In this document: one piece after another, positions 33,054 through 64,000 of the stretch
Layout of the letters: the number at the start of each line of letters is the position of its first letter
How positions within the stretch are numbered: position 1 is the first letter of the stretch
From: Candidatus Gottesmanbacteria bacterium
GTDB taxonomy: Bacteria > Patescibacteriota > Microgenomatia > 2-02-FULL-39-11
Reading direction: 5' to 3'
NCBI GenBank assembly: GCA_016186795.1
Contig: JACPKY010000002.1
Span: 350,748-414,747 of the forward strand
DNA: 64,000 nucleotides
Program-made: the position numbers and the translations under genes
Notes under the pieces: generated by a model
Database searches by the model: none
Told to the model about the DNA's origin: nothing
What the model saw: only the letters and a program-made list of their open reading frames with translations

Positions 33054-33056
33054 TAT

Positions 33057-47947: not shown

Positions 47948-49249
47948 TTAGTAAGAAAGTAAACTTTTATACTTTGCCAATCTCTTTTCTATTATCTCCA
48001 TACTTGTATCCTTATCATCTCTTTCTACAAAAAGACTTAAATTTAACATAGTAATAATCTTTATCACACTAGCTTTGAACTTATATTTTAGGCCTTTATA
48101 TTTTTGATTGCGTAAATATGCCTCAATGATTTCTTTTGTGCCTGTCTTTTCTTGAGAGTTTTGTTTGGCAGTTGCTAAAAATTTCGCTAATCCTTTTATA
48201 GGGTCCCCCTTTTTGAGAAAATGATTCACAGCCCAATTTCGAAGCTGAATATACGTATTTTTATTTGATTTCAACATTCGTAAAAGTTCTTCTTTCGTTT
48301 TCGCTTTTGGCACGTATCCGTACCACTCTCCTATTAGATCTTTCGGTAGCGGAAACGGCTCTAGCATAAGTATTGGTTTTTTTGCAATTGCTGCTTCAAT
48401 GAGACTCGTAGAGAAGGAAGAAACGACAATATCGCTTGCAAGTATCCAATCTCGAACGGTGTAGTCTTTGAGAATGTGTATTCTTTTTCCAAGTTCTGGC
48501 TCGAATTTTTGTACGGTTTCTAAAAACGTAGTATAGGAAGTGGCCGGTCGTGGCCGGATAATAATTTCTACATTGTCACTTTTTTTTAGAAATCGTAACC
48601 AATGGAGCACCTCGATAAGCGATTTACCGCAATAATCTCTCATTTGATAGACAGCTTTCCTGTCTTGGCCATTTTTTATTATCTCTTCAATCAAATGGTC
48701 AGAGTAAAAGTACCAAGAATAATTCTCTGGGAAAAATATCCATTTTTTCCGTTGGTCTATATCAAATTTTTTCCCTAAGATTTCTCTTGACGCGAATACT
48801 TTCCTGTATGGAGGGAAATAAAGGTAGTAAGCTGGTTGACCATTCACGAATATGTGGCTCTCTGGGACTCCTCTATCCTGTAAGAATATCGCCCGCTGTT
48901 TACTCCACGCATGATGGAGAACGCATTTCTTCGCAAAAGAGTCTCGAGGTGCTTTATATTCAATGTTTGCTCTATAAAATACTTGTTCCCAGGAAAGATT
49001 TACAAATGTTGCATCGTTCCAAGATGAAAGGTAATGTTTGAGTCCAGAATCATGTATGGAGTAACAATACGGTAAAAGAACAATTGTGGGATGAAATTGT
49101 TGAGTAAAAGAGGTAGGACGGGGATGGAAAAAGGGGAGAATCTTTACCTTCTTTTGATATTTTGATTCCAAAAGTGCTGTGGTTGCACAAGCTACGTCAA
49201 GTTCTCTCGCAAAGTGTTCAATAAACCAGACAATATCTAATTTCTCCAT
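47948..49249 (-). CDS. GT-B-fold protein of the KpsC/KpsS/TagF-like type (CMP-/CDP-activated donor transferases)
   Basis: IIRPRPATS ... ILASDIVVSSFSTSLIEAAIAKKPILML resembles the HP....NS/T-x-G-x-E-A...G-KP-v core of Capsule_synth/TagF-like enzymes. It is paralogous in pattern to 60269-61915 and 62806-end. Confidence 0.4.
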   Translation of the reverse strand: MEKLDIVWFIEHFARELDVACATTALLESKYQKKVKILPFFHPRPTSFTQQFHPTIVLLPYCYSIHDSGLKHYLSSWNDATFVNLSWEQVFYRANIEYKAPRDSFAKKCVLHHAWSKQRAIFLQDRGVPESHIFVNGQPAYYLYFPPYRKVFASREILGKKFDIDQRKKWIFFPENYSWYFYSDHLIEEIIKNGQDRKAVYQMRDYCGKSLIEVLHWLRFLKKSDNVEIIIRPRPATSYTTFLETVQKFEPELGKRIHILKDYTVRDWILASDIVVSSFSTSLIEAAIAKKPILMLEPFPLPKDLIGEWYGYVPKAKTKEELLRMLKSNKNTYIQLRNWAVNHFLKKGDPIKGLAKFLATAKQNSQEKTGTKEIIEAYLRNQKYKGLKYKFKASVIKIITMLNLSLFVERDDKDTSMEIIEKRLAKYKSLLSY

Positions 49250-51180: not shown

Positions 51181-51934
51181 GTGTGAAAGGCGTGTGTAAA
51201 ATTTTTGGCAATGTTGCTTTTCCCTCCTTTATAAGCCGCTGGGCATAGTACCAATCATACTCCGTGTTCACATCGACTCCTTCATCATCTTTGGTAAAAA
51301 ATGGCATGATTGCCTCTCCCGAAATAGAATGGTGTTCAAATACACATCGAGTTTTTGCAATCTCCAAACTTGCATTCTGCATATACACTTCTGGAAGAGA
51401 TGGGTACTGAAGACTGTGCCAGAGAATACCTTTTTTATGAGGATTTTCCATGACGGGTTTCATTCGATTTTTTTCCTTATCCACAATCCACATTTTCGCT
51501 GGATGATGCGTGGTTTTCTCTACCGCACGAAGAGAATCTACGTTTGGATTATTAAGGATCATATTCCATGCTCGCTTAAGTGTTTCTGGTTTTCTAAAAG
51601 GACTAGTTGGTCTTAAAATTGCAAAATAGTCATATAACTCTCCTTTTTCTCTCAAAAATTGAAGAGTGTAGGATATCCACTCGATATCAGGAGATGTTTC
51701 TTGGGCAAATTCAGATGGGCGTAAGAATGGAACATCTGCTCCATAATATCTCGCAACATCTGCATAGAGTTTACTATCCGTTGAAACAATAACTTTTGAG
51801 AAAATGTTTGACTCCAAAGACGATACTATACTGTATGCAAGGAGTGGATGGCCATACAGTTCTCTGATATTTTTGTGTTTAATTCTCTTCGAACCGGACC
51901 TTGCAGGAATAAGAGCTATGCAAGAATGTTTCAT
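51158..51934 (-). CDS. CMP-sugar synthetase (acylneuraminate/pseudaminate/Kdo cytidylyltransferase family, CTP_transf_3)
   Basis: N-terminal IALIPARSGSKRIKHKNI motif typical of NeuA/PseF/KdsB-like cytidylyltransferases. Confidence 0.85.
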   Translation of the reverse strand: MKHSCIALIPARSGSKRIKHKNIRELYGHPLLAYSIVSSLESNIFSKVIVSTDSKLYADVARYYGADVPFLRPSEFAQETSPDIEWISYTLQFLREKGELYDYFAILRPTSPFRKPETLKRAWNMILNNPNVDSLRAVEKTTHHPAKMWIVDKEKNRMKPVMENPHKKGILWHSLQYPSLPEVYMQNASLEIAKTRCVFEHHSISGEAIMPFFTKDDEGVDVNTEYDWYYAQRLIKEGKATLPKILHTPFTLDYESIK

Positions 51935-51945
51935 ATGATTCTCTT

Positions 51946-53955
51946 TTACTTATAACCTCTCTTGCCGATTTTCACCAGAACATATGAACTATTCTGAATT
52001 ATTAATTTGGCATTGTTCGTTTCGATGAGTTTTTGAATATAAGTATCGGGATTTATCGATAATTCTGAAGTGTCTATAAGTAAATAAACCGGATCATTCT
52101 TTATCTCAAAGACCATGTTTTGAAGTAACCTTTCATTTTCAGGATATAATACTAGATTTTCAATGATCTTTTGTCTTTGGGCATATTGAGAATGTCCTTG
52201 GATGTATAAATCTGATGTTTTGGCGAAATAAATTCTTCGCTGCACGATTGCGCTCAAGAGTTCTTGTTGTCTTGGCAAAGCGGCAACAATGGCGTTAGGT
52301 TCACTATTTTTTCTTATCCATACTGCTACTTCCTCCAATTTTCTATCTGTGGAAATGATCTTCGTACCCTGACTCTCAATGCCTGATGGAAACTGCTGAC
52401 GAGACGACGTATATGCGACGAGTATAAAAAGATACTGAAGAAAAGTGAAAATGAAAAAACCATAAAGAATAATCTTCTTAACTTTCTTTCCAAATATATT
52501 CGCATTATGCTCAATACCCTTGATAGTGAGGATAGAGAGAGGAATACTGGAAAGAAAAACAAATTTATATTGGTTATTATCCGGTAAAAGAAGAAATATA
52601 CTCAAAGAGAATAGCACAAAAAAAAGAACCGCTAGTGCAAAAAGTTTGATGGAGTTACTCTTGCCTATCATTGCCTTTAAACCATCATATGCAAAAGGAA
52701 GAAAGAGAAGATAGGTGAACTGGAAATCTAATAGAGAATATACCCGAAACGATAATCCAATATTAAATTCCTTAAATGCTTGCTGAATAGGTTGGATATA
52801 GGGATATATTAGAACAGAAACTGTTAAAATCGAGGCAAGTATGAAAAGAGATGTTTTCTCCGGTAACATGGAAGCTTTTTTCAAGGAGCCGAATATATCA
52901 ATAAGAGCAAAAAAGAATAAGAAAATTACAGCTGGAATGAATGAGACGGGATGAAATAAAGCCAAACCCAGAAGAGTTATGAAAAGAGGGATCACTAGTT
53001 TTCGTATGGGAAGCTCAGTTAACTTTACAATGATTAGAACTAAGGTGAGATTCAAAACAAATCCAAGTCTGAATCCATCAATACTCAGAAATTTATGGAC
53101 AAGGTCTAGCAATCGCCCGTCAACAGGAAATATCTTAGCGATATTCGTGATCGCACTAGGATCTAGAGTTTTAAATGTACTATAAATACCTGGATTTCTT
53201 ATTAATCTCACTAAAAAAACAGTCCCATTATATAATCCTGGTCCCATCACCAAAAGGAAAGCACCAAGAATTTGTAGACTTGAATTTTGAACAAAATTTC
53301 TTGAGAGTAAAAATCCAATGGTAAAGACAGAAAATATTGACATCAAACCAACAATTACGCTGACTTGCAACGCTGACATATTGAGAATAATTGATCCAAC
53401 GGCAAGATACAAAGAATACAACCAATATGTGTTTATGGGGATACCTGCCAGAGCAAAATGGTCAGGAGGTATGATACCATTCATAATTTGATAGACTATT
53501 GGCAAGTGTATGTTTCCTTCATAAGACTGTTGTACCCGTATAAATGACAAAGGTATTACAACCAAAGAAGATAAACAAAGCATAAGAACCAAAATTTCTT
53601 TTTCTTTAGCTAAGGATATGTACCTGGCCTGTTTCTTTGTAATTAAAAGATAGAAAGAGGAAAGAAGAGTATAAGCGATAATAGATCCAGTGGTGAAGGA
53701 AAGAGAAAAATGCATAAGGTAAGAAATGAAATAGCCCATTATAACAATCAAAGAGGAAGAAAGAGGGAAGGCAAGTGCACTTACTTCTAGAAGAGTCAAA
53801 TGAGATGGCACTGCAATGGCTAATAAATTAAATCCATTTAAGAAAAAGAGTACTGGCAATACATAAAGATTTGCTTGGAGAGAGAAAATTTTTTGGATAA
53901 TAAATAATACAAAAGAACAAATGAGCGAAATTATGACTATTCTCTTTACGGACAT
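51946..53955 (-). CDS. Polytopic membrane protein with a C-terminal soluble domain (candidate Wzy-like polymerase or GT-C)
   Basis: 669 aa, more than 12 TM helices, and a roughly 150-aa hydrophilic C-terminal domain. Confidence 0.4.
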   Translation of the reverse strand: MSVKRIVIISLICSFVLFIIQKIFSLQANLYVLPVLFFLNGFNLLAIAVPSHLTLLEVSALAFPLSSSLIVIMGYFISYLMHFSLSFTTGSIIAYTLLSSFYLLITKKQARYISLAKEKEILVLMLCLSSLVVIPLSFIRVQQSYEGNIHLPIVYQIMNGIIPPDHFALAGIPINTYWLYSLYLAVGSIILNMSALQVSVIVGLMSIFSVFTIGFLLSRNFVQNSSLQILGAFLLVMGPGLYNGTVFLVRLIRNPGIYSTFKTLDPSAITNIAKIFPVDGRLLDLVHKFLSIDGFRLGFVLNLTLVLIIVKLTELPIRKLVIPLFITLLGLALFHPVSFIPAVIFLFFFALIDIFGSLKKASMLPEKTSLFILASILTVSVLIYPYIQPIQQAFKEFNIGLSFRVYSLLDFQFTYLLFLPFAYDGLKAMIGKSNSIKLFALAVLFFVLFSLSIFLLLPDNNQYKFVFLSSIPLSILTIKGIEHNANIFGKKVKKIILYGFFIFTFLQYLFILVAYTSSRQQFPSGIESQGTKIISTDRKLEEVAVWIRKNSEPNAIVAALPRQQELLSAIVQRRIYFAKTSDLYIQGHSQYAQRQKIIENLVLYPENERLLQNMVFEIKNDPVYLLIDTSELSINPDTYIQKLIETNNAKLIIQNSSYVLVKIGKRGYK

Positions 53956-53975: not shown

Positions 53976-55439
53976 TTATACACGAGAGGGATTGTATTTA
54001 ATGTACACAGTTTTCCATTCGGAATAAACATCAAGTGCTTCTGTCCCTGGTTCTCTGTGACCGTTGCCTGACTTTCCTACACCTCCAAAGGGCAAATGTG
54101 GTTCGCTCCCAAAGGTAGGCCCATTCACTGATACCAGTCCAACCCGTACTCTATGTATAAATTCTTGTATTCTATGAATACTTCTTGTATGAATTGCAGA
54201 TGTCAAACCATAATCAGTTGCATTAACAAGTCTTACTGCTTCCTCAAAATTTTTCACCTTAAATAGACATGTCACCGGACCGAAGAGCTCGCTTTGAGAA
54301 ATGGATGCATCCACTTTTGCTCCTTCAACAATTGTTGGTTCTATAAAAAAACCATTTTTCTTCTCACCTTTGACCAACCTCTTTCCACCCGCAATTACAT
54401 TCGCTCCCTGGAGTACAGCATGATCAATCTCTACAAGAATTTTATTCATTTGACTCTCATTAATCACAGGTCCTACATCATCTTTATCACCTGATCCAAC
54501 TTTTAACTGTTTTGTTTTTTGCACAAATTCTCTTTTAAACTGATCATATATTTTTTCAAAAATGATGAGTCTACTCCCGGACGAACACCGCTGGCCAGCG
54601 TTTGAGAAAGCAGATAAGACAGCGTAAGAGACAGCATCCTTCATATCTGCATCATCACATACAAGAAAAGCATTTTTTCCCCCCAGTTCCAGACTCACTT
54701 TTGCAATCCTACCACCCGCAACTTTTGCGATATACTCACCTACTTCACATGAGCCGGTAAAACTTACGAGATCCACTCTATCATCCTCGACAAGCGATCG
54801 ACCAACCTCCTCTCCAGATCCTTGAACAACATTAAAAACTCCTTTGGGAAGTCCGGCTAGTTGCAATATTTTTGCAAACCAGACAGGTGTGAATGGCGTA
54901 TCTTTTGCAGCCTTCAACACACAAGTATTTCCACAAAGAAGTGCTGGAAATGCTTTCCAGGAAACATTGGCAATCGGTGTGTTAAACGGAACAATGAGTG
55001 CACAAACTCCTATAGGTTGACGCATTGTATATGCGAAGCGGTTAAGTACCGCTGAAGTTGTCGTCCTTCCATAAAACCTTCTTCCCTCCCCTGCCATAAA
55101 AAATCCAAGCTCAATAGCTCCTGAAACTTCCACAAGTGAATCTTTGAAAGATTTTCCAGTTTCGGAAGATACAATAAAAGCAATTTCCTCTCTTTTTTCT
55201 TGGAGAATCAAAGCTGCGGTTCTTAGTATATCGGCTCTTTGAATAACGGGAGTATATGCCCACCGAAAGAAATGATCAGAAGCATAAGTTACAGCACTAT
55301 CTACATCTTCGCCTGTCCCCTTTTCTATGCGCGCGACTACTTTTCCACTCGTTGGAGAGATTTTTTCAATATACTTTCTCGAAGTGCTTTCAACTTCATT
55401 CCCATTAATAAAATGATAAATTCGTGAAGGGTATTTCAT
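53976..55439 (-). CDS. NAD(P)-dependent aldehyde dehydrogenase
   Basis: ELGGKNAFLV (catalytic Glu region), the Cys region FSNAGQRCSSGSR, and EPTIV...ELFGPV ALDH motifs. Confidence 0.9.
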   Translation of the reverse strand: MKYPSRIYHFINGNEVESTSRKYIEKISPTSGKVVARIEKGTGEDVDSAVTYASDHFFRWAYTPVIQRADILRTAALILQEKREEIAFIVSSETGKSFKDSLVEVSGAIELGFFMAGEGRRFYGRTTTSAVLNRFAYTMRQPIGVCALIVPFNTPIANVSWKAFPALLCGNTCVLKAAKDTPFTPVWFAKILQLAGLPKGVFNVVQGSGEEVGRSLVEDDRVDLVSFTGSCEVGEYIAKVAGGRIAKVSLELGGKNAFLVCDDADMKDAVSYAVLSAFSNAGQRCSSGSRLIIFEKIYDQFKREFVQKTKQLKVGSGDKDDVGPVINESQMNKILVEIDHAVLQGANVIAGGKRLVKGEKKNGFFIEPTIVEGAKVDASISQSELFGPVTCLFKVKNFEEAVRLVNATDYGLTSAIHTRSIHRIQEFIHRVRVGLVSVNGPTFGSEPHLPFGGVGKSGNGHREPGTEALDVYSEWKTVYIKYNPSRV

Positions 55440-55464: not shown

Positions 55465-56259
55465 CTACCAAGCGGTAAACCCTCCGTTTACCTGCAGATT
55501 AGTCCCAGTGACGTAGGCAGATGCATCTGAAGCAAGGAATACCAAGGGGCCTCCCAAATCTGTTTCTTTTTGAGCCATACGGCTCAAAGGAATACGTGAT
55601 GAATATTTTTGGATAAATGTTTTATCCTGATTATTGAATACTCCTCCAGGAGATAATGTGTTGATCCGGATATTCCATTTTGCCAGGCGGGTTGCAAAAT
55701 AACGAGTCACTTGCATAAGTGCAGCTTTCGTTGCCCCATAATCCCATGGTTTATCAAACTGAAGATGAGTGTAGAATCTCTCATTGGGAGATCTCTCTCC
55801 ATAGAGGGATCCGATGTTTATAATTGACCCTTTCTTCTTCTTTTTCATATCCGCAATAAATTCATTGATACAATTGACCGCTCCAGATACATTCACATCC
55901 CACATCTTTTTTGCGTGAGGACGATTTTCCATGTATATTCCTATTTTTTGCGGAGGGATATCAATTCCAGCATTATTAACAAGAATATCAATAGGACCTA
56001 ATTCATTAAGTATTTTTTTATGAATTGTTTTTAACTGCCTAGGATTTGTAATATTACCTTTATAAAAAAGAAGGGAGGAAGAATGAAGAGTAAGAGTTGA
56101 AGGAATTGTCCTTTTGGGCAAGTCAATAATTGCAACATGTGCCTTTACATCAAGAAGTGCTTGTACAAACCACGGTCCTAAATTTCCACAACCCCCAGTA
56201 ACAACTGCAGTTTTTCCTCTGAGTAGAAATCGATCTAAAACAGGAATATATTTCTTCAT
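55465..56259 (-). CDS. Short-chain dehydrogenase/reductase (classical SDR)
   Basis: TAVVTGGCGNLG cofactor motif. YGATK (YxxxK) active site. Confidence 0.85.
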   Translation of the reverse strand: MKKYIPVLDRFLLRGKTAVVTGGCGNLGPWFVQALLDVKAHVAIIDLPKRTIPSTLTLHSSSLLFYKGNITNPRQLKTIHKKILNELGPIDILVNNAGIDIPPQKIGIYMENRPHAKKMWDVNVSGAVNCINEFIADMKKKKKGSIINIGSLYGERSPNERFYTHLQFDKPWDYGATKAALMQVTRYFATRLAKWNIRINTLSPGGVFNNQDKTFIQKYSSRIPLSRMAQKETDLGGPLVFLASDASAYVTGTNLQVNGGFTAW

Positions 56260-57320
56260 AAAACATCACCGAGAATAAACGCTTCATCTTTTTTTAATGT
56301 TCGCTTTAATTTCTTTCCTATCAATTCATCTACTTGATAGGGATGGAGTCCGCCTCCAGGAGATTTAAATGCAATATCATTTATTTCCAATACATGCCAT
56401 TTGGGTAGATTTTTTGTGGCAACAATCTTTTTCTGCATCTTTATGATGGCCTTTTTCTCACTCTCGTATACCTTTTTTACTCCATCTCCTAAAGCAGTTT
56501 TGACGCGCCGAAGATCTCGTACAAGTTTTCGCATTCCAATCGGCTCAAGAGAAAATACGTGATCAGTGCCTTTCATAACACGGTTGAGGGTAAAGTGCTT
56601 CTCAATAATACGTGCCCCCAAAACAAATGCAGCAACAGACATGGCAATGCCATTATCGTGTGCAGAAAATCCTATGATATTTTCTGGAAAATATTTATGA
56701 TATGAACGTATCACATGAAGATCAAGCTCTGAAAAGTCACTTGGATAACTTGCGGTACATTGAAGAATTGCAAGTTGTGGGTTTATAGACATAATAGATT
56801 CTTGCGCACGTCTCACATCATCAAGCCTTGCCCCGCCTGTTGACATTATCATCGGTTTACCTGCCTTTGCAATGTAGCGAAGAAGAGGAAGATGGACAAC
56901 ATCTGCTGAGGCAATCTTAAATGCTGGCATGGATAAGTCTTCTAAAAAATCTACGCTCTCAAAATCAAATGCTGTGGCAAAAAAGATTAAGTCAAGCTTT
57001 TTGGCATAATCTTGGAGTTCTCTATATTGAGATTTATCAAATTCAAGCGCTTCCCTGTGTCGTCCGTATGTCGGACCAAAAGCATTTTCCGAATTATAGA
57101 CTGAATTATAAAATTCTTTTGTATAGAGTTTTTTATTGTGACGCTTTTGAAGTTTCACCGCATCTACACCACACTCTTTTGCAGCTTTAAAAAGCTGTTT
57201 GCATATTTCTACACTTCCTTGGTGGTTGTGACCTATCTCTGCAATAACAAAACAGTCACTTGATTCAGAGATTGTATAATTTTTGATCCGTAAGATTCGC
57301 TTCTTGTTTTCCCCAACCAT
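56256..57320 (-). CDS. NeuB/PseI/LegI-family ulosonic acid synthase (PEP-dependent condensation; TIM barrel plus C-terminal SAF/antifreeze-like domain)
   Basis: DCFVIAEIGHNHQGSVEICKQLFKAAKECGVDAVKLQKR, and the C-terminal SAF domain (KSPGGGLHPYQVDELIGKKLKRTLKKDEAFILGDV). Confidence 0.9.
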   Translation of the reverse strand: MVGENKKRILRIKNYTISESSDCFVIAEIGHNHQGSVEICKQLFKAAKECGVDAVKLQKRHNKKLYTKEFYNSVYNSENAFGPTYGRHREALEFDKSQYRELQDYAKKLDLIFFATAFDFESVDFLEDLSMPAFKIASADVVHLPLLRYIAKAGKPMIMSTGGARLDDVRRAQESIMSINPQLAILQCTASYPSDFSELDLHVIRSYHKYFPENIIGFSAHDNGIAMSVAAFVLGARIIEKHFTLNRVMKGTDHVFSLEPIGMRKLVRDLRRVKTALGDGVKKVYESEKKAIIKMQKKIVATKNLPKWHVLEINDIAFKSPGGGLHPYQVDELIGKKLKRTLKKDEAFILGDVL

Positions 57321-57357: not shown

Positions 57358-58425
57358 CTAGGTTATCCCCTTAAAAAGTCTATCCAGAGCTGCAAATGCC
57401 CCCTTTCTGTATATCTTATTTGGATTTCCTGGGGGGAAAGGTTTACGCGTTTTATCTAAGGCCTCTTTGAATGAATCGACTGAGTGAATATCCACAACAA
57501 AACAATAAGGCTGAAGAATGGAGGGAAGCCTTTCGTAGAGTCTTTTCGTAACCAATATATAACATTTGCAAGCAATTGCTTCTATTATCTTTGTCTTAAA
57601 TCCCGTACCAAAGTCAGAAAATATTGCGATTGCCCTTGCTTCTCCAAGTAAATCAAACGGTCTCTCAACAACTCCACTCAATTTTACTCTTTTCGGTAAC
57701 GTTTTCCGAAATACATTACTCCCGGTCATTGAAAATGTCCAATCATATTTCTTTGAACCCAATTTCTCTACAAGCTTTATAAAAAATCTTGCTGAGTCTT
57801 TAATGAACTCATTGGGCGATGTCGACATGTAACAAATACACCTTCTTTTTTTCTTTCTGTTTCGGGGAATAAATCGTTCATAGGATTTTGGGAGAAAATA
57901 AGGAAGATATACAATTTTCTTTGCCCCCAGAAATTGCCAGTATTCTTGGGAATCCCACTCTGATATTGATAAGATTTTATCAGAATTTCTTGCGCAGATA
58001 ATATCATCTTTCAATCGTAAAAATCCTTCTTCGAGAGAGCGTATATTTTCCTTTAAAATATTTACAAAACTCCGAGAAAAGGAAACAATGCCTCTTGAGA
58101 GAATCTGATGTAGTCTGTGATAAAATTCTGCGTTGTGCACACGAATATAAAGACGGCAACTTGGAAAATACTTTCTTATATACATCATGGATTGTGGATA
58201 TCGGGAGTATTCGAAGAAGATATGTGTATATTTCCCAAATTGAATGTCTTCTATATTTTCCATCAGAAGTTTATCGGACCGCTCTCTCACCCAATATTCA
58301 TCAACTGGTATTTTCCTTGCTTTAAAATATTCAGTTCTCCCTCGTACGTCTTTCGTACTCCCTAAAAACATATTACTTGGCTTTGTCAATGGTTTATCAA
58401 ATATATGAAGGACTCTCGTTTGCAT
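57358..58425 (-). CDS. Hypothetical protein, possibly a divergent GT-B glycosyltransferase
   Basis: C-terminal ARAIAIFSDFGTGFKTKIIEAIACKCYILV resembles the donor-binding C-terminal motif of GT-B enzymes. Confidence 0.35.
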   Translation of the reverse strand: MQTRVLHIFDKPLTKPSNMFLGSTKDVRGRTEYFKARKIPVDEYWVRERSDKLLMENIEDIQFGKYTHIFFEYSRYPQSMMYIRKYFPSCRLYIRVHNAEFYHRLHQILSRGIVSFSRSFVNILKENIRSLEEGFLRLKDDIICARNSDKILSISEWDSQEYWQFLGAKKIVYLPYFLPKSYERFIPRNRKKKRRCICYMSTSPNEFIKDSARFFIKLVEKLGSKKYDWTFSMTGSNVFRKTLPKRVKLSGVVERPFDLLGEARAIAIFSDFGTGFKTKIIEAIACKCYILVTKRLYERLPSILQPYCFVVDIHSVDSFKEALDKTRKPFPPGNPNKIYRKGAFAALDRLFKGIT

Positions 58426-58429
58426 ACAA

Positions 58430-60265
58430 TTAATTGCTTCCTTTCTCTACATACCAGTTCCCAATACTTATTCCATCAACCCAACCGTTTATAAGATGTT
58501 CTAAGCAATCTTTGGGAGATGCGACAATTGGTAATCCATGCCTGTTGAAAGATGTATTAAGAAGTACTCCGATACCGGTCTTTCGCTTAAATTCAATCAA
58601 AAGATTGTACACCCATGGATGGAAATTTTTATCCACTACCTCAGGACGCATCGTACCATCGACATGTACAGCTGCAGGGATTGTTTTTTTAGCAAAAGTA
58701 TTTGCCTTGACGATGAATGTCATATATTTATAATTTGCATCTCCTGACCAATATTTATGAGCATCTTCCTTTAGTAGAACTGGTGCAAAGGGAACAAACA
58801 GTTCTCTCCCTTTGAGGATTCGATTAATTCTATCCTTTATCGATATGTCTCGTGGATCAGCAAGGACAGATCGGTTCCCAAGAGTACGGGGCCCCATTTC
58901 AAGTCTTCCTTGGAATGTACCAATTACCTTTCCCTTTGTCAGTTCTTGAGAAAGATGTGATACTGAACCGTTTCTTATCGTTATTGGATATTTCTGTCTG
59001 AAAGATTGAAGGGTTTTCTCAATCTCAGAATCAGTGAATTGTGTCCCCAAAAATGGATTCTCCCAAGCAAGTGAAGAAGTTATAAATCCTTCCTGATACA
59101 GTGCTTCAAGTGCAGCACCAGCTGCAAGACCACTGTCTCCACTATCCGGATAAACAAAAAAAGCTGACGGAGTAAGTCTATTTTTAATAAGTGAATTTCC
59201 TTTCACATTTAGAAATACTCCTCCTGCCGCTGCAATATTTTTGCTCTTTGTTAAATGCATGGCGTCTTTTACGTATTCGAACATACATCTCTCACATACC
59301 TTTTGGGCAAAAAACGCAAGATCTTCTCGGGAGTACGTTTTAAGTAATCTCTCAAAATCTTCTGCCTGAGACACAGATGAAAGTGGATTTGGAACTTTTT
59401 TATCGGGATGGGCAAGATTGAAACTGCGCCACTTCCAGGCAATGTGTGACTTCAATCTCCCATCATGACTTGAAACTATATGATGAAAAGGGTTTTTCTT
59501 CCCTCGAGAGCTCCCAAATGCAGCAAGACCCATTGTTTTATATTCACCATCAACCGGAATAAATCCAAGAGCTTCTGTGACTGCTTGATAAAAAGCTCCA
59601 AGACTATCATCTGCTTTTGATGCCCGCTGAAGGACCATTTGGCCATCTGAAAATCCTTTATAGATTGTTCCGCTCAAGCCATCACCTTTTCCATCAAGAG
59701 TTACTACGCATGCATTTTTAAAGCCAGAGAGCCGAAATGTAGAGGAGGCGTGTGCACGGTGATGGGAGATGTAGTAATAAGAAATCCGAGGATGGAAAAG
59801 ACCTATTTCAGAGAGGAATTTCTCATTGAAAAGATAATGCCGTTTGTAGTATTTTCCCCAATTCTTTTTAATAAGTTCTTCTAATCCTATTCTCCTTTTA
59901 TCATGCATTCCCCATCCAAAATCTTCTAATAAATTTTTCCTCATCCAATCATGAATGATTTGCATTTTGGAGACAATTCTTTTCTTTCTGCCATAAACAT
60001 CAACGATAATACTTCTTTGATATTTGGGATAAAATATACTACTTGAAGTAAATGCAACGATAGAAATATCGGCAGGTGTGAGATTACAAAAGTCTAAAGC
60101 CGCAAGAATAGACTTTTTCGGAAACCCATAATAGTGTTTTATACGAGATATCCTCTCCTCCTGAATAGAGAAGAGAATTCCTTTGGGTGAACAGACACTA
60201 ACAGATGCATCGTGCGCCCAGTGTATTCCTAGTGCATATGGGCCATTGTTATTTACTCGGATCAT
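58430..60265 (-). CDS. NodU/CmcH/TobZ-family carbamoyltransferase (O-carbamoylation of a sugar)
   Basis: N-terminus ALGIHWAHDASVSVCSPKGILFSIQEERISRIKHYYGFP matches the Carbam_trans_N pattern (L-G-x-x-x-HD-[SA]-[AS] ... EER..R.KH...FP). 611 aa. Confidence 0.85.
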   Translation of the reverse strand: MIRVNNNGPYALGIHWAHDASVSVCSPKGILFSIQEERISRIKHYYGFPKKSILAALDFCNLTPADISIVAFTSSSIFYPKYQRSIIVDVYGRKKRIVSKMQIIHDWMRKNLLEDFGWGMHDKRRIGLEELIKKNWGKYYKRHYLFNEKFLSEIGLFHPRISYYYISHHRAHASSTFRLSGFKNACVVTLDGKGDGLSGTIYKGFSDGQMVLQRASKADDSLGAFYQAVTEALGFIPVDGEYKTMGLAAFGSSRGKKNPFHHIVSSHDGRLKSHIAWKWRSFNLAHPDKKVPNPLSSVSQAEDFERLLKTYSREDLAFFAQKVCERCMFEYVKDAMHLTKSKNIAAAGGVFLNVKGNSLIKNRLTPSAFFVYPDSGDSGLAAGAALEALYQEGFITSSLAWENPFLGTQFTDSEIEKTLQSFRQKYPITIRNGSVSHLSQELTKGKVIGTFQGRLEMGPRTLGNRSVLADPRDISIKDRINRILKGRELFVPFAPVLLKEDAHKYWSGDANYKYMTFIVKANTFAKKTIPAAVHVDGTMRPEVVDKNFHPWVYNLLIEFKRKTGIGVLLNTSFNRHGLPIVASPKDCLEHLINGWVDGISIGNWYVEKGSN

Positions 60266-60268
60266 TCG

Positions 60269-61915
60269 TCATAAATCCTCATGAGGAAATACAAATGGTG
60301 TACCTTTGAGTATTCCGTCACACATAGTTGTAAGACCTGGATATTTTCCTGTTAGCAAATCATGTAGTCCCTCTAAATTCAAAGTAAACGTGAACTTTTC
60401 TTTGGATTCAATGAAAGGTAGTGGAATCATACGTCTGAAAAAGAAATGAAATGCATATTTTTTTGCCATATTTACTTGACGATCTGTTAATTTCTTCTTA
60501 AACGGTAGTTTGTCAAGAATCTTTTTGTACTCTTTTTTACTTGTTACGTCAATAGAAAAGCCTTTATTTCTGATCCATGACTCTCCACATACGATCATGG
60601 GTATTCCAAGTGGGGAAAGTTCAATACCGGTTTTTGTATTGTAGATAATAACGGCATTACACTTTTCCATAACCGCATAAGTACTGATTGTGCTTTCAGG
60701 AGGAATAATTTTTATGTTGGAGGCAAGATGAGGATAGTATTTTTTTATTTCTGAAAGTAATGGCTGTCGAGAAGGAACCAACCCATGTATTTCTGCAGGA
60801 TGAATTCGTATAAGAAGTTGAATACTTTTCCTTTTTGAAAAATATGAAATTGTTGTCAAAACCCAATCTATCATATTATCAAAAGCAACCGAATTGTAAT
60901 GAAGACGTGCATCCCACATAACGTTTGTCAACACCCCAATACAAGGCTTTTTAAAATCTATACCAATGTTGTACTCTATCTTACCAACGTCCTCTAATGG
61001 ATTTTCATGAAACCATATCCAATCAGAAGTACCAGAACGTCTTGAGTAAAGATACGTATCTAACCGTTTTTCAAGTTTTGGAGTTAATTGTAAGTTCTTC
61101 CATACATCCGCTTTCTCCTCTAACATCGTATGATGGTACGTATCACCATGACTAAAAATGAATGTATGGCGCCTGTATGCTGGGTTCCAATTAACAATAC
61201 GTACTTTTTCCCTTCGACAAATCTCGCCAATAATACCTTGTGGGATATAAATACCATGATGAAAACAGGCTATATCATACTTTTTTTTCTTAAGTAAATT
61301 CTGCAAAGCATACGCAGAAAGAAATCCTGCATGGATGTATCTTTTTAGAACATCATTTCCAAAACGCTCTCCTTCAAGATCACCGCGGCCAAAATAGCGA
61401 AGAGTTCCCGCATATGCATGTTCTCCTAAAGCAACATGCTTATACATATACTCATCAACATGAGGCAGTGGCACATTATATGCGTTTGCTCTTGCTTGCT
61501 TTTGCTCTTTCTTACCAACTAACTCACTGTAGTAATGAATAGGAAGACCAAGAGGAGTAAAAACTTTTTTGCCGGCACTTAAACAGGAATCACAAATATT
61601 CAATTGACCTTTTTCTACTAGTTTTTGGGGATCAATTTTTGCAATTTTCGTCATTTGGCATGCCGGTAGAAATTTATCGCAAAGAAGTATATCAACACTG
61701 GCTCCCCGAAGAGTAAGGGAAACGGCCAAAGTACTTTCAAGTACTGTAGCATGGTTATACCCTCCAAGACTTGTTGCTATAAGGACGCGAGGACTTTTTG
61801 CTCTCTTTTTGGCATCTTCCCAATAGGATTTATTTTTTGCAATTATTTTTAACCAATCTACATGGAGATTTTTTCCTCGTCTGTTAAGTTTGGGAAATAT
61901 GGGTATGTCTACCAT
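60269..61915 (-). CDS. KpsC/KpsS/TagF-like GT-B-fold protein (paralog 2)
   Basis: IRIHPAE ... STISTYAVMEKCNAVIIYNTKTGIELSPLGIPMIV matches the Capsule_synth-like HP...v.t.nS/T.G.E.....G.P core. Confidence 0.4.
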   Translation of the reverse strand: MVDIPIFPKLNRRGKNLHVDWLKIIAKNKSYWEDAKKRAKSPRVLIATSLGGYNHATVLESTLAVSLTLRGASVDILLCDKFLPACQMTKIAKIDPQKLVEKGQLNICDSCLSAGKKVFTPLGLPIHYYSELVGKKEQKQARANAYNVPLPHVDEYMYKHVALGEHAYAGTLRYFGRGDLEGERFGNDVLKRYIHAGFLSAYALQNLLKKKKYDIACFHHGIYIPQGIIGEICRREKVRIVNWNPAYRRHTFIFSHGDTYHHTMLEEKADVWKNLQLTPKLEKRLDTYLYSRRSGTSDWIWFHENPLEDVGKIEYNIGIDFKKPCIGVLTNVMWDARLHYNSVAFDNMIDWVLTTISYFSKRKSIQLLIRIHPAEIHGLVPSRQPLLSEIKKYYPHLASNIKIIPPESTISTYAVMEKCNAVIIYNTKTGIELSPLGIPMIVCGESWIRNKGFSIDVTSKKEYKKILDKLPFKKKLTDRQVNMAKKYAFHFFFRRMIPLPFIESKEKFTFTLNLEGLHDLLTGKYPGLTTMCDGILKGTPFVFPHEDL

Positions 61916-61916
61916 C

Positions 61917-62819
61917 TTAGGGAAAAAACCTTTTTAGAAATAAAATCAATCTATTCATGTATCCCTTTTTCCGTACGAAATACCAAAACGCCATATAAAA
62001 TCCGATGAAAAAATTGGAATAGATGTGACGTCGGGGAAATAAACTGATAAAAACGATAAGTCCGATCATGTGAGTAAGTACAGGAAACCTCGCCCAAAAG
62101 GGTATTTTCCCATCTTCAAACAAACTCAAGTATTGATGGTGTATTTCATCATCAGCCGTACGTTTTAATTGAAAAAAACGTCGTTTCCACAGATATTTTT
62201 TTACTTGCTTAAACTGTCCCCAAACTGATAATTCCATCAGTACAAGTCTATCTGGCATTAGACAGTAGGGGTAAATACTTGTTCTTCTTAGTATATCTCT
62301 CCGCATAAGGCCATACGCCATATTGCCAACGTTGACCATCTTTTGACAAACAAGTTTTACTCTCTTCATCTTCGGAACTCTTGCTGTATCGAAATCGGAA
62401 AATCGGTATGAGAGTACTTTCCCTTTTTCATTTATAGCCTTTGTACGAGGATATGCAAGAACAACATCTCTATTTTCCTCGAGTATCAAAACTAGGATTT
62501 TAACAAAATTCTTATGCCAGATATCGTGATTTGAACCCCACATAAAGTATTCTCCATGAGTATAGTTAAAGACTTTGCGAAAATTTAAAATCGCACCCCT
62601 GTTTTTATCGCTTTGCAAAATCTTAATTCGTTTATCTTTCCTTGCAAACTCTTTACAAATCGAAAGAGTTGCATCGGTTGATGCATCATCTGAAACGATG
62701 ATTTCAATATGTTTGTATGATTGGGTAACTAATGATTGAAGCGCCTCTCGAATATATGGTTCTCCGTTATACGCTGGTATACCAATTGAGACGAGTTTTT
62801 TGTTATTAATTTTTTTCAT
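61917..62819 (-). CDS. Glycosyltransferase family 2
   Basis: VSIGIPAYNGEPYI...EIIVSDDASTDAT signature. Confidence 0.8.
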   Translation of the reverse strand: MKKINNKKLVSIGIPAYNGEPYIREALQSLVTQSYKHIEIIVSDDASTDATLSICKEFARKDKRIKILQSDKNRGAILNFRKVFNYTHGEYFMWGSNHDIWHKNFVKILVLILEENRDVVLAYPRTKAINEKGKVLSYRFSDFDTARVPKMKRVKLVCQKMVNVGNMAYGLMRRDILRRTSIYPYCLMPDRLVLMELSVWGQFKQVKKYLWKRRFFQLKRTADDEIHHQYLSLFEDGKIPFWARFPVLTHMIGLIVFISLFPRRHIYSNFFIGFYMAFWYFVRKKGYMNRLILFLKRFFP

Positions 62820-64000
62820 TTATCATTCGTAAACTTTCGATAATATCGGAGGCAGCCTCACCAGCTGAGGTATTGAGACCATAGGGCTGAATATAATTTC
62901 GAATAAAAAGATTTTGTGATTTTTTTAGTTCGTTACCCATCTTTTCTATTCTCTTTATATGCGCTATTGCTTGACCGATGGTATTGGCTTGCAAGTAAAT
63001 ATTTTTCTTTAAGAGATATTGAAAATGAAGAGCTTTTATGGCATTTGTACGTTCATACTCGTGAGGCCGAAGTGCAATAACCGGTTTTCCTATAATGACT
63101 GCATCAATCATTGCGCTTGTATTTATTCCAATAGAACAGATAGCATACTTTAAACTGAGACAAAATTCTTCTATCGCCTCTTTTGTGTCAGCTATTTCAA
63201 AGGAGCGAAAAAGCACTTTCACATTCCTGAGCTTTATTTGTTTAAATATCTCCTGATTTGCTCCATGAGGTCGTACGAGTAGAATTAAATTGCGAATTTC
63301 TTGATTGGGAGATTTTGCAATTTCTCTTGCAAGATTTTTAACAAGCCATGTCTCATCAAATGCAATATTTGCAGAAGATCCAAGATAGATAATATACTGC
63401 TGCCCCTCTTTGATACCTAATTTTCCAAAAAACTGTTTCCGCGTCTGGATCTTTTTACCGATTGTAAACCATTTGTCAAAAAGCGGCGCTCCCATGATTT
63501 TAATTAAAGACGAGGACACTTTATGGATCTGAGTTAATTCCTTCTTATGGATAGAATTCCAGGCTAAAAAAGTTCCTGGTCTCACATGAAAAAGTCCTTT
63601 TGTTGTGAGGTTATCCCAGCTATGAATAGCTATCACTGTCGGAATATTGAGTGCATTTGCTGCTTTTATATATTCGACTTCTTCCGAATAACGCATATTG
63701 ACCGGAGAAGCAACGACCACATGAGGTTTTTTTCCAATTAACTCCTTCATAATCTGACTATCAGGAGGTGCACTTTTTTCCAAAGAATGTAATACTCTCT
63801 CTATGAAATTCGAAGTTATGTATCTCTTAATAAGGCTCAATCGAAAGAGGAAACGAAGTATTCTCGGTTGGTACCCCTCCCATCTTTTAAGGTAAAATCC
63901 TGGATAACTTTTTTGTTTACAGTAGTATATATATGTTAATAACTCTCGGGACGGAAAAAGAATTTTTCTCCATAAATCGTCTCTTCGTTTAAGCCAACCA
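62806..64000 (-). CDS. KpsC/KpsS/TagF-like GT-B-fold protein (paralog 3). The N-terminus lies beyond the window end. The frame is open from 63840 to 64000 with no stop, and the listed TTG at 63840 is not the real start.
   Basis: LLVRPHGANQ ... KYAICSIGINTSAMIDAVIIGKPVIAL core. In-frame translation continues without a stop to position 64000. Confidence 0.4.
   Translation of the reverse strand, partial: GWLKRRDDLWRKILFPSRELLTYIYYCKQKSYPGFYLKRWEGYQPRILRFLFRLSLIKRYITSNFIERVLHSLEKSAPPDSQIMKELIGKKPHVVVASPVNMRYSEEVEYIKAANALNIPTVIAIHSWDNLTTKGLFHVRPGTFLAWNSIHKKELTQIHKVSSSLIKIMGAPLFDKWFTIGKKIQTRKQFFGKLGIKEGQQYIIYLGSSANIAFDETWLVKNLAREIAKSPNQEIRNLILLVRPHGANQEIFKQIKLRNVKVLFRSFEIADTKEAIEEFCLSLKYAICSIGINTSAMIDAVIIGKPVIALRPHEYERTNAIKALHFQYLLKKNIYLQANTIGQAIAHIKRIEKMGNELKKSQNLFIRNYIQPYGLNTSAGEAASDIIESLRMINEKN

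What the first reader, a model, noticed from the sequence alone, without database searches (positions are those of the whole stretch)
58430..60265. O-carbamoyltransferase (NodU/CmcH family) in a surface glycan locus
The N-terminal Carbam_trans_N signature is clear. Carbamoylated sugars are known from Nod factors, from some antibiotics (tobramycin, novobiocin) and from rare O-antigens. A carbamoylated surface polysaccharide or glycoprotein glycan in a CPR-like organism would be new. Translational coupling to the flanking KpsS/TagF-like genes suggests it modifies the same ulosonic acid or its acceptor.
Basis: partly seen in the sequence, partly recalled or inferred. Interest (0 to 1): 0.5.

Follow-up and report, generated by a model that had tools for sequence, protein, structure and literature searches.

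The report
Sugar carbamoyltransferase in a glycan cassette
The gene is a real, apparently intact TobZ/NodU-type carbamoyltransferase in a huge cell-surface glycan island of a Candidatus Gottesmanbacteria (CPR) genome; it belongs to a gene cassette shared by many bacterial phyla that probably adds a carbamoyl group to an acidic-sugar-containing surface glycan, so it is a new member of a known enzyme family rather than a new kind of system.

Summary
Confirmed. Window 58430..60265 (-) encodes a 611-aa protein with both carbamoyltransferase domains (PF02543 3.7e-32, PF16861 6.1e-55). Its AlphaFold model matches TobZ, GdmN, NovN and VtdB (TM 0.75-0.80). Every TobZ/GdmN catalytic residue I could map is present and conserved: H18, H168xxxH172, D191, D377, K485xR487, S572xN574.

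The exact protein is already in NCBI as a "hypothetical protein" of Candidatus Gottesmanbacteria.

New here is the context. The enzyme falls in a clade of 22 loci from Acidobacteriota, Planctomycetota, Nitrospirales, Methylomirabilota, Thermodesulfobacteriota and CPR. Of these, 21 carry at least one of the window's neighbours:
- a GT4-like protein (355 aa);
- a 456-aa protein weakly related to Tannerella nonulosonic-acid transferases;
- Wzm/Wzt exporters.

None of 61 other carbamoyltransferase loci has the first three. Elsewhere the carbamoyltransferase is fused to the GT4-like protein, and the GT2 to the KpsC-like protein.

A NeuB-like synthase, NeuA-like CMP-transferase, SDR, aldehyde dehydrogenase and transketolase follow in the same operon.

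Most likely the enzyme carbamoylates a sugar of this glycan in the cytoplasm. The target residue and the carbamoyl-phosphate source are unproven.

The parts
58430..60265 (-). Carbamoyltransferase gene (611 aa), TobZ/NodU/CmcH family. This is the finding.
   Evidence: ORF. Pfam PF02543 + PF16861. PDB sequence hits NovN 2e-60, VtdB 7e-59, GdmN 2e-54, TobZ 5e-50. AF2 model pLDDT 87.8. Foldseek TobZ E 1.8e-43, TM 0.75/0.80.
59108..60232 (-). Kae1/TsaD-like transfer domain (residues 12-386). Holds the catalytic base H18, the metal site H168, H172, D191 and D377, and the oxyanion-hole pair G192-K193. A long, partly helical linker (residues ~73-167; lowest model confidence at 112-120) lies where GdmN has its substrate-pocket helix.
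   Evidence: Pfam. H18 aligns to GdmN H27 and D191/G192-K193 to GdmN D156/G157-R158. H168/H172/D191 align to TobZ chain positions 120/124/143 and D377 to 344, i.e. 114/118/137/338 after the 6-residue chain offset. These residues are invariant, and H18 is in at least 90%, of 34 homologues. Linker lengths.
58442..58948 (-). YrdC/TsaC-like adenylation domain (residues 440-608) with the K485-x-R487 / S572-x-N574 tetrad and M515.
   Evidence: Pfam. K485, M515 and S572 align to TobZ chain positions 449, 479 and 536. Minus the 6-residue offset these are K443, M473 and S530, the residues mutated in PDB entries 3vez, 3vf2 and 3vf4. The KxR/SxN tetrad is essential for ATP binding in TsaC/Sua5. Invariant in alignment A1.
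60269..61915 (-). 548-aa KpsC/KpsS-like GT-B glycosyltransferase, a putative CMP-ulosonic-acid-dependent transferase. NCBI name: 'capsule biosynthesis protein'.
57358..58425 (-). 355-aa divergent GT4-like glycosyltransferase, the closest functional partner of the carbamoyltransferase.
   Evidence: PF13692 at 4e-6; all 11 orthologues tested match it. Present in 12 of 22 clade loci and 0 of 61 others. Fused to the carbamoyltransferase in P0064 (1037 aa). Fused to a methyltransferase in L009, L019 and L021.
61917..62819 (-). GT2 glycosyltransferase (300 aa).
   Evidence: PF00535 at 5.8e-30. Fused N-terminally to the KpsC-like protein in P0144 (853 aa; 43% and 55% identity). Present in 11 of 22 clade loci.
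62806..64000 (-). 3' part of a 456-aa gene that runs off the window end. Weakly related to the BFO_1060 family (Tannerella nonulosonic-acid transferases).
   Evidence: The full gene is seen in L001:6090-7460. NF046086 gives 27.6 bits against a cut-off of 200; orthologues reach up to 48 bits. BFO_1060 is aligned with the Pse/Leg-derivative transferases in PMC5420450. Present in 11 of 22 clade loci.
56256..57320 (-). NeuB/SpsE-like ulosonic-acid synthase (PEP + aldose condensation).
   Evidence: PF03102 at 1.5e-76. TIGR03569 scores 299.5 against cut-off 399.65 and PseI 245.6 against 340, so it is neither Neu5Ac nor Pse synthase by NCBI thresholds. The nearest PDB entry is B. subtilis SpsE, 2e-50. 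Orthologues at 57-58% identity occur in L008, L019, L021 and L022.
55465..56259 (-). Short-chain dehydrogenase/reductase.
   Evidence: PF13561/PF00106. Orthologues at 39-43% identity in five clade loci.
53976..55439 (-). Aldehyde dehydrogenase. Not in every version of the cassette.
   Evidence: PF00171 at 4.4e-154. Orthologues only in L022 (53%) and L010 (41%). An SDR-ALDH-transketolase set also lies beside a KpsC-like gene in L091.
51946..53955 (-). 669-aa polytopic membrane protein specific to this genome's version of the cassette. Role unknown.
   Evidence: 11 hydrophobic segments. Weak DUF6541 match only. No homologue in the 89 loci held when compared (L001-L089).
51158..51934 (-). NeuA-like CMP-ulosonic-acid synthetase.
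   Evidence: PF02348 at 4.1e-21. PDB hits are NeuA / CMP-Neu5Ac synthetases at 2e-23 to 4e-15, against KdsB at 5e-6. Orthologues at 55-57% identity in L008, L019, L021 and L022.
49237..51180 (-). Full-length transketolase-family enzyme, part of the conserved sugar-precursor set.
   Evidence: PF00456/PF02779/PF02780. PDB transketolases at 1e-64. Orthologues at 33-37% identity in five clade loci (L008, L010, L019, L021, L022); a sixth counted hit (L020) is only 23% identical.

Best explanation
The gene encodes an active, cytoplasmic, two-domain carbamoyltransferase of the TobZ type.

Mechanism, by homology: the C-terminal YrdC-like domain uses carbamoyl phosphate and ATP to make carbamoyl-AMP. 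This intermediate passes to the N-terminal Kae1-like domain. There a metal held by H168, H172, D191 and D377 positions it, and H18 deprotonates an acceptor hydroxyl, which attacks to give an O-carbamate plus AMP.

Acceptor, inferred from gene neighbourhood and fusions: a sugar residue of the surface glycan assembled by the four glycosyltransferase-like genes around it (456-aa, GT2, KpsC-like 548-aa, GT4-like 355-aa). It is modified on the cytoplasmic face before export.

The downstream genes (NeuB-like synthase, SDR, aldehyde dehydrogenase, NeuA-like CMP-transferase, transketolase) supply a CMP-activated 2-ulosonic acid that the KpsC-like enzyme most likely transfers. The carbamoylated residue is that acid or the sugar next to it.

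Shown: enzyme family, intact catalytic residues, fold, conserved synteny, fusions. Inferred: activity, O- rather than N-linkage, identity of the acceptor, cytoplasmic timing.
For: - Family and fold.
- Catalytic residues mapped to TobZ and GdmN and conserved in 34 homologues.
- The carbamoyltransferase has no hydrophobic segment, and it needs ATP and carbamoyl phosphate, so it should act in the cytoplasm.
- Operon packing with 3-4 nt spacers.
- An NJ tree of 81 carbamoyltransferases puts the window protein in a 22-locus clade. In that clade 12 loci have the KpsC-like gene, 12 the GT4-like gene, 11 the 456-aa gene and 13 Wzm/Wzt. The figures for 61 other loci are 0, 0, 0 and 5.
- Fusions: carbamoyltransferase with the GT4-like protein (P0064), and GT2 with the KpsC-like protein (P0144).
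- The KpsC-like assignment of the 548-aa neighbour.
- NeuB-like and NeuA-like assignments. The same NeuB-SDR-NeuA-transketolase set follows the carbamoyltransferase in L008, L019, L021 and L022.
Against: - No biochemical data exist for any member of this clade.
- About half of the clade loci lack a NeuB/NeuA set within 10 kb, so the ulosonic acid is not an obligatory partner. The acceptor could be another sugar.
- L091 has the SDR-ALDH-transketolase-KpsC-like-CMP-transferase set with no carbamoyltransferase, so the enzyme is an accessory tailoring step.
- Three literature searches found no carbamoylated ulosonic acid, so there is no chemical precedent.
- CPR genomes are metabolically reduced. 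I could not check whether this one makes carbamoyl phosphate.
- The loci compared are not phylogenetically independent, so the Fisher p-values overstate the support.
Confidence: 0.6

Rival explanations
1. The enzyme acts on a soluble precursor rather than on the assembled, lipid- or protein-linked glycan. The precursor could be the free or CMP-activated ulosonic acid, or the aldose made by the transketolase and SDR. The carbamoylated sugar would then be transferred by the neighbouring transferases.
For: The characterised relatives TobZ, NovN, GdmN and VtdB all act on small soluble molecules. The gene lies between transferases and a complete precursor/activation set. A transketolase accompanies carbamoyltransferases in two sister clades, which could mean the enzyme targets a transketolase-derived hydroxyl.
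Against: The fusion is with a glycosyltransferase-like protein, not with a precursor enzyme. Many clade loci have the transferases but no NeuB/NeuA/transketolase within 10 kb.
Confidence: 0.2
2. It is an N-carbamoyltransferase that turns an amino sugar of the glycan into a ureido sugar.
For: From my own knowledge, not tested here: some NodU/CmcH-family members (VioL/CmnL of viomycin and capreomycin biosynthesis) carbamoylate amines. The island encodes a DegT-type sugar aminotransferase at 38838-39968.
Against: The conserved cassette has no aminotransferase; DegT lies 18 kb away. The His base used for hydroxyl deprotonation in GdmN and TobZ is conserved. All solved relatives are O-carbamoyltransferases.
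Confidence: 0.1
3. The carbamoylated residue is a non-reducing-end cap that terminates chain growth and is recognised for export. This would parallel the beta-Kdo cap added by WbbB or the methyl/phosphate caps of ABC-transporter-dependent O-antigens. It is a special case of the best explanation.
For: 13 of 22 clade loci have Wzm/Wzt within 10 kb. In six Acidobacteriota loci they lie roughly 1.3 kb upstream of the carbamoyltransferase, with room for one short intervening gene. Wzt of L008 has a weak Wzt_C hit. The KpsC-like partner resembles the WbbB Kdo-capping domain. The GT4-like partner is fused to a methyltransferase in three loci.
Against: The window itself has no Wzm/Wzt. It has instead a Wzx-like flippase and a Wzy_C protein. 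KpsC-type enzymes also build internal poly-Kdo linkers.
Confidence: 0.15
4. It is not a sugar-modifying enzyme at all. It could be a HypF-like maturase, a t6A-type enzyme, a nucleic-acid 5hmC carbamoyltransferase or a secondary-metabolite tailoring enzyme.
For: The family also holds 5-hydroxymethylcytosine carbamoyltransferases (PMC8670742) and antibiotic tailoring enzymes. HypF scores 28.6 bits.
Against: HypF scores 28.6 against a cut-off of 466 and ranks 48th in the fold search with TM 0.22. The domain order is TobZ-like. There are no hydroxymethylase, phage, PKS/NRPS or hydrogenase genes in 64 kb; the island is glycosyltransferases and sugar-nucleotide enzymes.
Confidence: 0.03

Closest known systems
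TobZ (tobramycin 6''-O-carbamoyltransferase, PDB 3ven) and the solved relatives GdmN, NovN and VtdB
   Same: Same two-domain architecture and fold (TM 0.75-0.80). Same metal site, His base and KxR/SxN adenylation tetrad. The same two-step carbamoyl-AMP mechanism is expected.
   Different: Only 23-26% identity. The window protein has a longer linker between the first beta-sheet and the HxxxH helix: 96 residues, against 32-71 in most of the other carbamoyltransferases compared, though some also have 76-103. It lacks GdmN's C-terminal dimerisation domain. Its genomic context is glycan assembly, not antibiotic biosynthesis.
NodU / NolO (Nod-factor O-carbamoyltransferases)
   Same: Same Pfam families; both carbamoylate a sugar hydroxyl. 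NodU is the best NCBIfam hit.
   Different: 129 bits against the equivalog cut-off of 1000, and only residues 318-578 align, so it is not a NodU orthologue. There are no nod genes nearby.
WapO (PA5005) of Pseudomonas, the putative carbamoyltransferase for 7-O-carbamoyl-heptose in the LPS core
   Same: It is the main precedent, among the papers I read, for a NodU-family enzyme assigned to decorating a cell-surface glycan, encoded among core glycosyltransferase genes (PMC8005017).
   Different: WapO's target is an LPS inner-core heptose in a diderm. The sequence relationship to the window protein was not tested here. The window's organism is a CPR bacterium and the partners are KpsC-like and GT4-like transferases.
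KpsC/KpsS (GT107) and WbbB (GT99) retaining beta-Kdo transferases. These are the closest relatives of the 548-aa neighbour, not of the carbamoyltransferase.
   Different: About 10% identity. The window protein itself has no PF05159 hit. Q of the QxxxD motif is N or S. The CMP-sugar supplied is made by NeuB/NeuA-type, not KdsA/KdsB-type, enzymes.

Membership tests
TobZ/NodU/CmcH carbamoyltransferases (PF02543 + PF16861) | Kae1/TsaD-like N-domain followed by a YrdC/TsaC-like C-domain in one chain | tested here: met
   Pfam residues 12-386 and 440-608, both above cut-off. Foldseek whole-chain TM 0.75-0.80 to TobZ.
TobZ/NodU/CmcH carbamoyltransferases (PF02543 + PF16861) | Metal site HxxxH + Asp + Asp in the Kae1-like domain (TobZ H114, H118, D137, D338; these residue numbers are from my memory of Parthier et al. 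2012 and are consistent with the 6-residue chain offset) | tested here: met
   H168, H172, D191 and D377 align to TobZ chain positions 120, 124, 143 and 344. Invariant in 34 homologues.
TobZ/NodU/CmcH carbamoyltransferases (PF02543 + PF16861) | Catalytic His base near the N-terminus (GdmN H27, TobZ H14) | tested here: met
   H18 aligns with GdmN H27. GdmN H27N is inactive. The TobZ H14N variant is PDB 3vex. H18 is present in at least 90% of alignment A1.
TobZ/NodU/CmcH carbamoyltransferases (PF02543 + PF16861) | KxR / SxN tetrad of the YrdC-like adenylation site | tested here: met
   K485, R487, S572 and N574 align to TobZ K443, R445, S530 and N532 (chain numbers 449, 451, 536, 538). The tetrad is described in PMC6004061. 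Invariant.
TobZ/NodU/CmcH carbamoyltransferases (PF02543 + PF16861) | ATP- and carbamoyl-phosphate-dependent carbamoyl transfer | not testable with these tools
   Needs an enzyme assay.
NodU proper (NCBIfam NF041651, equivalog) | Score at or above the curated cut-off of 1000 bits | tested here: not met
   129.3 bits, partial alignment.
HypF carbamoyltransferase (TIGR00143) | Score at or above 466 bits; acylphosphatase, zinc-finger, YrdC and Kae1 domains in that order | tested here: not met
   28.6 bits. No other Pfam domains. HypF ranks 48th with TM 0.22.
KpsC/KpsS retaining beta-Kdo transferases (PF05159, GT107), for the 548-aa neighbour | Match to PF05159 | tested here: inconclusive
   The window protein has no hit even at E<=10. 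A 49%-identical orthologue hits at 1.4e-9. About half of the close homologues carry PF05159.
KpsC/KpsS retaining beta-Kdo transferases (PF05159, GT107), for the 548-aa neighbour | KpsC-type GT-B fold | tested here: met
KpsC/KpsS retaining beta-Kdo transferases (PF05159, GT107), for the 548-aa neighbour | QxxxD nucleophile motif, HP motif and Glu base | tested here: inconclusive
   D335, H372-P373 and E60 are invariant with KpsC-like spacing, but Q is replaced by N or S. I made this alignment by hand against the KpsC peptide quoted in PMC10148158.
Neu5Ac synthase / pseudaminic acid synthase (TIGR03569, TIGR03586), for the NeuB-like gene | Score above the equivalog cut-off | tested here: not met
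   299.5 against 399.65, and 245.6 against 340.25. It is a NeuB-family member (PF03102, 1.5e-76) of unknown specificity.

The most novel reading that the evidence does not exclude
The window holds one copy of an undescribed, horizontally shared cassette: GT2, KpsC-like transferase, carbamoyltransferase and GT4-like transferase, sometimes with a methyltransferase, with a dedicated NeuB-like / NeuA-like / SDR / transketolase sugar pathway in part of the loci. Outside CPR, about six in ten of the clade loci have a Wzm/Wzt exporter within 10 kb. The cassette would install an O-carbamoylated 2-ulosonic acid, possibly as a chain-terminating cap, on surface glycans of Acidobacteriota, Planctomycetota, Nitrospirota, Methylomirabilota, Desulfobacterota and CPR bacteria. 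My literature searches found no carbamoylated ulosonic acid and no carbamoyl chain terminator.
Probability: 0.25. Interest if true: 0.6.

Novelty: new member of a known kind. Interest (0 to 1): 0.35.

Why it matters
The surfaces of CPR bacteria are almost unstudied, yet they are thought to mediate attachment to host cells.

A carbamate on an acidic sugar would add an uncharged, hydrogen-bonding group next to the carboxylate and change how the surface is recognised.

The more general value is the comparative result. This carbamoyltransferase clade travels with KpsC-like and GT4-like transferases across many phyla, and is fused to one of them. That gives a concrete, testable prediction of a +43 Da modification on an ulosonic-acid-containing glycan. 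It can be checked in a cultured carrier (Humidesulfovibrio mexicanus) rather than in an uncultured CPR organism.

The enzyme itself is an ordinary member of a well-understood family.

Tried and rejected
- Rfam scan of the whole window: nothing.
- Promoter and terminator scan of 47-64 kb: no more than in shuffled sequence, so no operon boundaries could be set.
- Profile searches of PDB sequences with the 548-aa and 355-aa families found nothing significant. Only fold comparison placed the 548-aa protein.
- Literature searches for 7XB6/8HIU, carbamoyltransferase + KpsS/capsule, carbamoyl + ulosonic/nonulosonic acid and carbamoyltransferase + O-antigen/NodU gave no paper on this cassette or on a carbamoylated ulosonic acid.
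- The 2026 review of carbamate-bearing carbohydrates does not cover polysaccharides.
- The AFDB fold library was unavailable.
- HypF/t6A and phage 5hmC-carbamoyltransferase readings were considered and rejected on score, domain order and context.
- I considered naming the ulosonic acid (Kdo, Kdn, Neu5Ac, Pse/Leg, a heptulosaric acid) and rejected doing so. The synthase is below all equivalog cut-offs, and the SDR / ALDH / transketolase combination matches no pathway I could document.
- I could not search the rest of the genome for a carbamoyl-phosphate source.
Full report
**Observation.** Pfam finds Carbam_trans_C (E 6.1e-55, residues 440-608) and Carbam_trans_N (E 3.7e-32, residues 12-386), both far above their curated cut-offs. 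The C-terminal domain is the stronger match. Homologues align end to end, so the gene is full length. The identical protein is encoded on contigs from at least five sequencing runs and on a 1.118-Mb NCBI contig. There it is annotated 'hypothetical protein HYW55_03190 [Candidatus Gottesmanbacteria bacterium]'. NCBI taxonomy places that name in the Microgenomates group of Patescibacteria, i.e. CPR.

- By sequence, the best solved relatives are NovN (2e-60), VtdB/7xb6 (7e-59), GdmN (2e-54) and TobZ (5e-50).
- An AlphaFold2 model built on 34 homologues (pLDDT 87.8) matches TobZ at E 1.8e-43 with TM 0.75/0.80, followed by GdmN, NovN and VtdB. Kae1/TsaD proteins match only the N-domain. HypF is rank 48 with TM 0.22.
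- NCBIfam gives NodU 129 bits (cut-off 1000) and HypF 28.6 bits (cut-off 466). The protein is neither a NodU orthologue nor HypF-like.
- Residue mapping from the HMMER alignments: H18 aligns with GdmN H27, the general base whose H27N mutant is dead. TobZ H14 is presumed equivalent, by analogy with GdmN H27; the H14N variant is PDB 3vex, but no alignment to the TobZ N-terminus was obtained. H168 and H172 align with the HxxxH pair. D191 aligns with GdmN D156, and G192-K193 with the oxyanion-hole pair G157-R158. D377 aligns with TobZ chain position 344.
- In the C-domain, K485, M515 and S572 align with TobZ chain positions 449, 479 and 536. After the 6-residue chain offset these are K443, M473 and S530, the residues mutated in PDB entries 3vez, 3vf2 and 3vf4. 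With R487 and N574 they form the KxR/SxN tetrad that binds ATP in TsaC/Sua5.
- All these residues are invariant in an alignment of 34 homologues at 49-59% identity, except H18, which is present in at least 90%.

The active site is intact, so the refutation test fails.

**Surroundings.** The first 10 kb of the window are housekeeping genes: a Mur ligase, a PBP, MraW, a class II tRNA synthetase and RecO. From 10.2 kb to the window end, and at least 6 kb beyond, almost every gene is on the minus strand and belongs to glycan synthesis. These include:
- an initiating Bac_transf phosphoglycosyltransferase;
- about twenty GT2/GT4/GT10/GT11 glycosyltransferases;
- a Wzx-like flippase and a 1046-aa Wzy_C protein;
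- several large GT-C-like membrane proteins;
- methyltransferases and a DegT aminotransferase.

The finding lies in a tightly packed run: 456-aa gene, GT2, 548-aa gene, carbamoyltransferase, 355-aa gene, NeuB-like, SDR, aldehyde dehydrogenase, 669-aa membrane protein, NeuA-like CMP-transferase, transketolase. The carbamoyltransferase is separated from its neighbours by 3 and 4 nt, with Shine-Dalgarno-like sequences inside the upstream coding regions. Promoter and terminator scans gave no more than chance.

**The neighbours.**
- The 548-aa protein has no Pfam hit of its own. It is 49-50% identical to proteins in other loci. The L008 one matches PF05159 Capsule_synth (KpsC/KpsS) at 1.4e-9, and the L009 ones carry a weak precomputed hit. 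NCBI calls it 'capsule biosynthesis protein', and about half of its close homologues carry PF05159.
- The family keeps an invariant Asp (D335) where KpsC has the nucleophile of its QxxxD motif, an invariant HP (H372-P373) about 37 residues later, and an invariant N-domain Glu (E60). The Q is N or S. It is therefore KpsC/KpsS-like but not a confirmed family member.
- The 355-aa protein is a divergent GT4-like glycosyltransferase. All 11 orthologues tested match PF13692.
- The gene listed as 62806..63840 is really a 456-aa gene cut by the window end. It scores weakly against the BFO_1060 family. That family is built around the Tannerella forsythia pseudaminic/legionaminic-acid-derivative transferases, which carry a TagB-superfamily domain and an HP motif.
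- The synthase is NeuB-family but below the Neu5Ac and Pse equivalog cut-offs. It is closest to B. subtilis SpsE.
- The cytidylyltransferase resembles NeuA far more than KdsB.

**Comparative evidence.** A pattern scan of one genome per species returned 80 loci encoding relatives of the enzyme. I compared all their ORFs with the window's proteins and built an NJ tree of 81 carbamoyltransferases.
- The window protein falls in a clade of 22 loci. They come from Acidobacteriota, Planctomycetota, Nitrospirales, Methylomirabilota/Rokubacteria, Thermodesulfobacteriota, Humidesulfovibrio and CPR Sungbacteria, and one is labelled Bifidobacterium.
- Within the clade, 12 loci have the 548-aa orthologue, 12 the 355-aa orthologue, 11 the 456-aa orthologue and 11 the GT2, usually right beside the carbamoyltransferase. 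None of the 61 loci outside the clade has any of them.
- 21 of the 22 have at least one partner. The exception has the gene at a contig edge.
- Wzm/Wzt ABC-exporter genes occur in 13 of 22 clade loci and 5 of 61 others.
- Four to six clade loci (L008, L019, L021, L022 and in part L010) also carry orthologues of the NeuB-like (57-58%), NeuA-like (55-57%), SDR and transketolase genes. In L022 and L008 they are in the window's order.
- Natural fusions link the genes. P0064 (1037 aa) is the carbamoyltransferase joined to the 355-aa protein. P0144 (853 aa) is the GT2 joined to the KpsC-like protein.
- A related locus has SDR, ALDH, split transketolase, Wzm, Wzt, the GT2::KpsC-like fusion and a CMP-transferase but no carbamoyltransferase. 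The enzyme is thus an accessory to an ulosonic-acid/KpsC-like system rather than its core.
- The loci are not independent samples, so the p-values (6.7e-9 and so on) are only indicative.

**Mechanism.** By homology, the YrdC-like domain makes carbamoyl-AMP from carbamoyl phosphate and ATP. The Kae1-like domain then transfers the carbamoyl group to a hydroxyl activated by H18 at the metal site. The protein has no hydrophobic segment and needs cytoplasmic co-substrates, so the reaction should precede export. The fusion to a glycosyltransferase-like protein favours action on the growing glycan. Action on a soluble CMP-sugar or its precursor remains a serious rival. Whether the carbamoylated residue is the ulosonic acid itself is not shown: about half of the clade loci have no NeuB/NeuA set within 10 kb. 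The frequent Wzm/Wzt neighbours, a weak Wzt_C hit in L008, the WbbB-like partner and the methyltransferase fusions make a chain-terminating cap an attractive but unproven special case. This window has Wzx and Wzy_C genes instead of Wzm/Wzt.

**Comparison with what is known, and novelty.** The enzyme is a clear member of the TobZ/NodU/CmcH family, and the sequence is already public. NodU-family enzymes have been assigned to decorating surface glycans before, for example the putative WapO/PA5005 for 7-O-carbamoyl-heptose in the Pseudomonas LPS core. I therefore rate it a new member of a known kind. What appears undescribed, within the limits of seven literature searches, is the conserved association of this clade with KpsC-like and GT4-like transferases and a NeuB/NeuA-type pathway. 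The implied carbamoylated ulosonic-acid glycan also appears undescribed. Because the cassette is shared with many non-CPR phyla at 45-61% identity, it is not a CPR-specific invention.

**Verdict.** Observation confirmed and interpretation largely right. The target sugar and the carbamoyl-phosphate supply are untested. Interest is moderate to low (0.35). The conserved cassette is the lead worth following, preferably in the cultured carrier Humidesulfovibrio mexicanus.

Noticed in passing
window 10241-64000 (continues at least 6 kb beyond, L001:1-6090): One continuous glycan-biosynthesis island of at least 54 kb, almost entirely on the minus strand, starting right after RecO. It holds Bac_transf, about 20 glycosyltransferases, Wzx, a 1046-aa Wzy_C protein, methyltransferases and DegT. 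That is roughly 5% of a 1.1-Mb genome.
   Followed up: partly
window 25980-27377, 28234-29727, 29752-31425, 39965-41566, 41606-43171, 51946-53955: Six large polytopic membrane proteins with GT-C-like or unknown-function domains (PMT_2 twice, DUF2079, DUF6798, DUF2142, weak DUF6541). This suggests extracytoplasmic glycosyl transfer to proteins or wall polymers. The 669-aa one inside the cassette has no homologue in the 89 loci held when compared (L001-L089).
   Followed up: no
window 32124-33959 and 33844-34830; L026:17542-21264: A second, split transketolase plus an epimerase/dehydratase. Its C-terminal subunit is 44-48% identical to split transketolases lying 2-8 kb from carbamoyltransferases of the alphaproteobacterial sister clade (Chelatococcus, Methylocystis). 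There the context is radical-SAM/SPASM, an MFS sugar transporter, GT4 and a PIG-L deacetylase. Transketolase and carbamoyltransferase genes thus lie near each other in two related clades.
   Followed up: partly
window 62806-64000: The ORF listed as 62806..63840 (TTG start, 344 aa) is an artefact of the window edge. The called gene in L001 is 456 aa and runs past base 64000.
   Followed up: yes
window 47948-49249 and 44279-45235: A 433-aa protein with no Pfam match and a GT2 also recur (29-37% identity) in six loci of the carbamoyltransferase clade. The shared cassette may therefore extend to about 20 kb (44.3-64.2 kb).
   Followed up: partly
window 45239-47942: Adjacent GT10-like and GT11-like (fucosyltransferase families) genes with a DUF268/methyltransferase gene between them. 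This hints at a fucosylated, methylated glycan, unusual for a CPR genome.
   Followed up: no
L009:9823-11706, L019:11631-13661, L021:11309-13315: In Humidesulfovibrio, Rokubacteria and Methylomirabilota the GT4-like partner carries a C-terminal methyltransferase domain. L008 has a separate methyltransferase between the KpsC-like gene and the carbamoyltransferase. The glycan may therefore be both methylated and carbamoylated.
   Followed up: partly
L011 (CALQBJ020000018.1): A contig labelled 'MAG: Bifidobacterium breve' carries the carbamoyltransferase, KpsC-like and GT4-like trio at 47-51% identity to the window. Given the other carriers, this may be a mis-binned contig.
   Followed up: no
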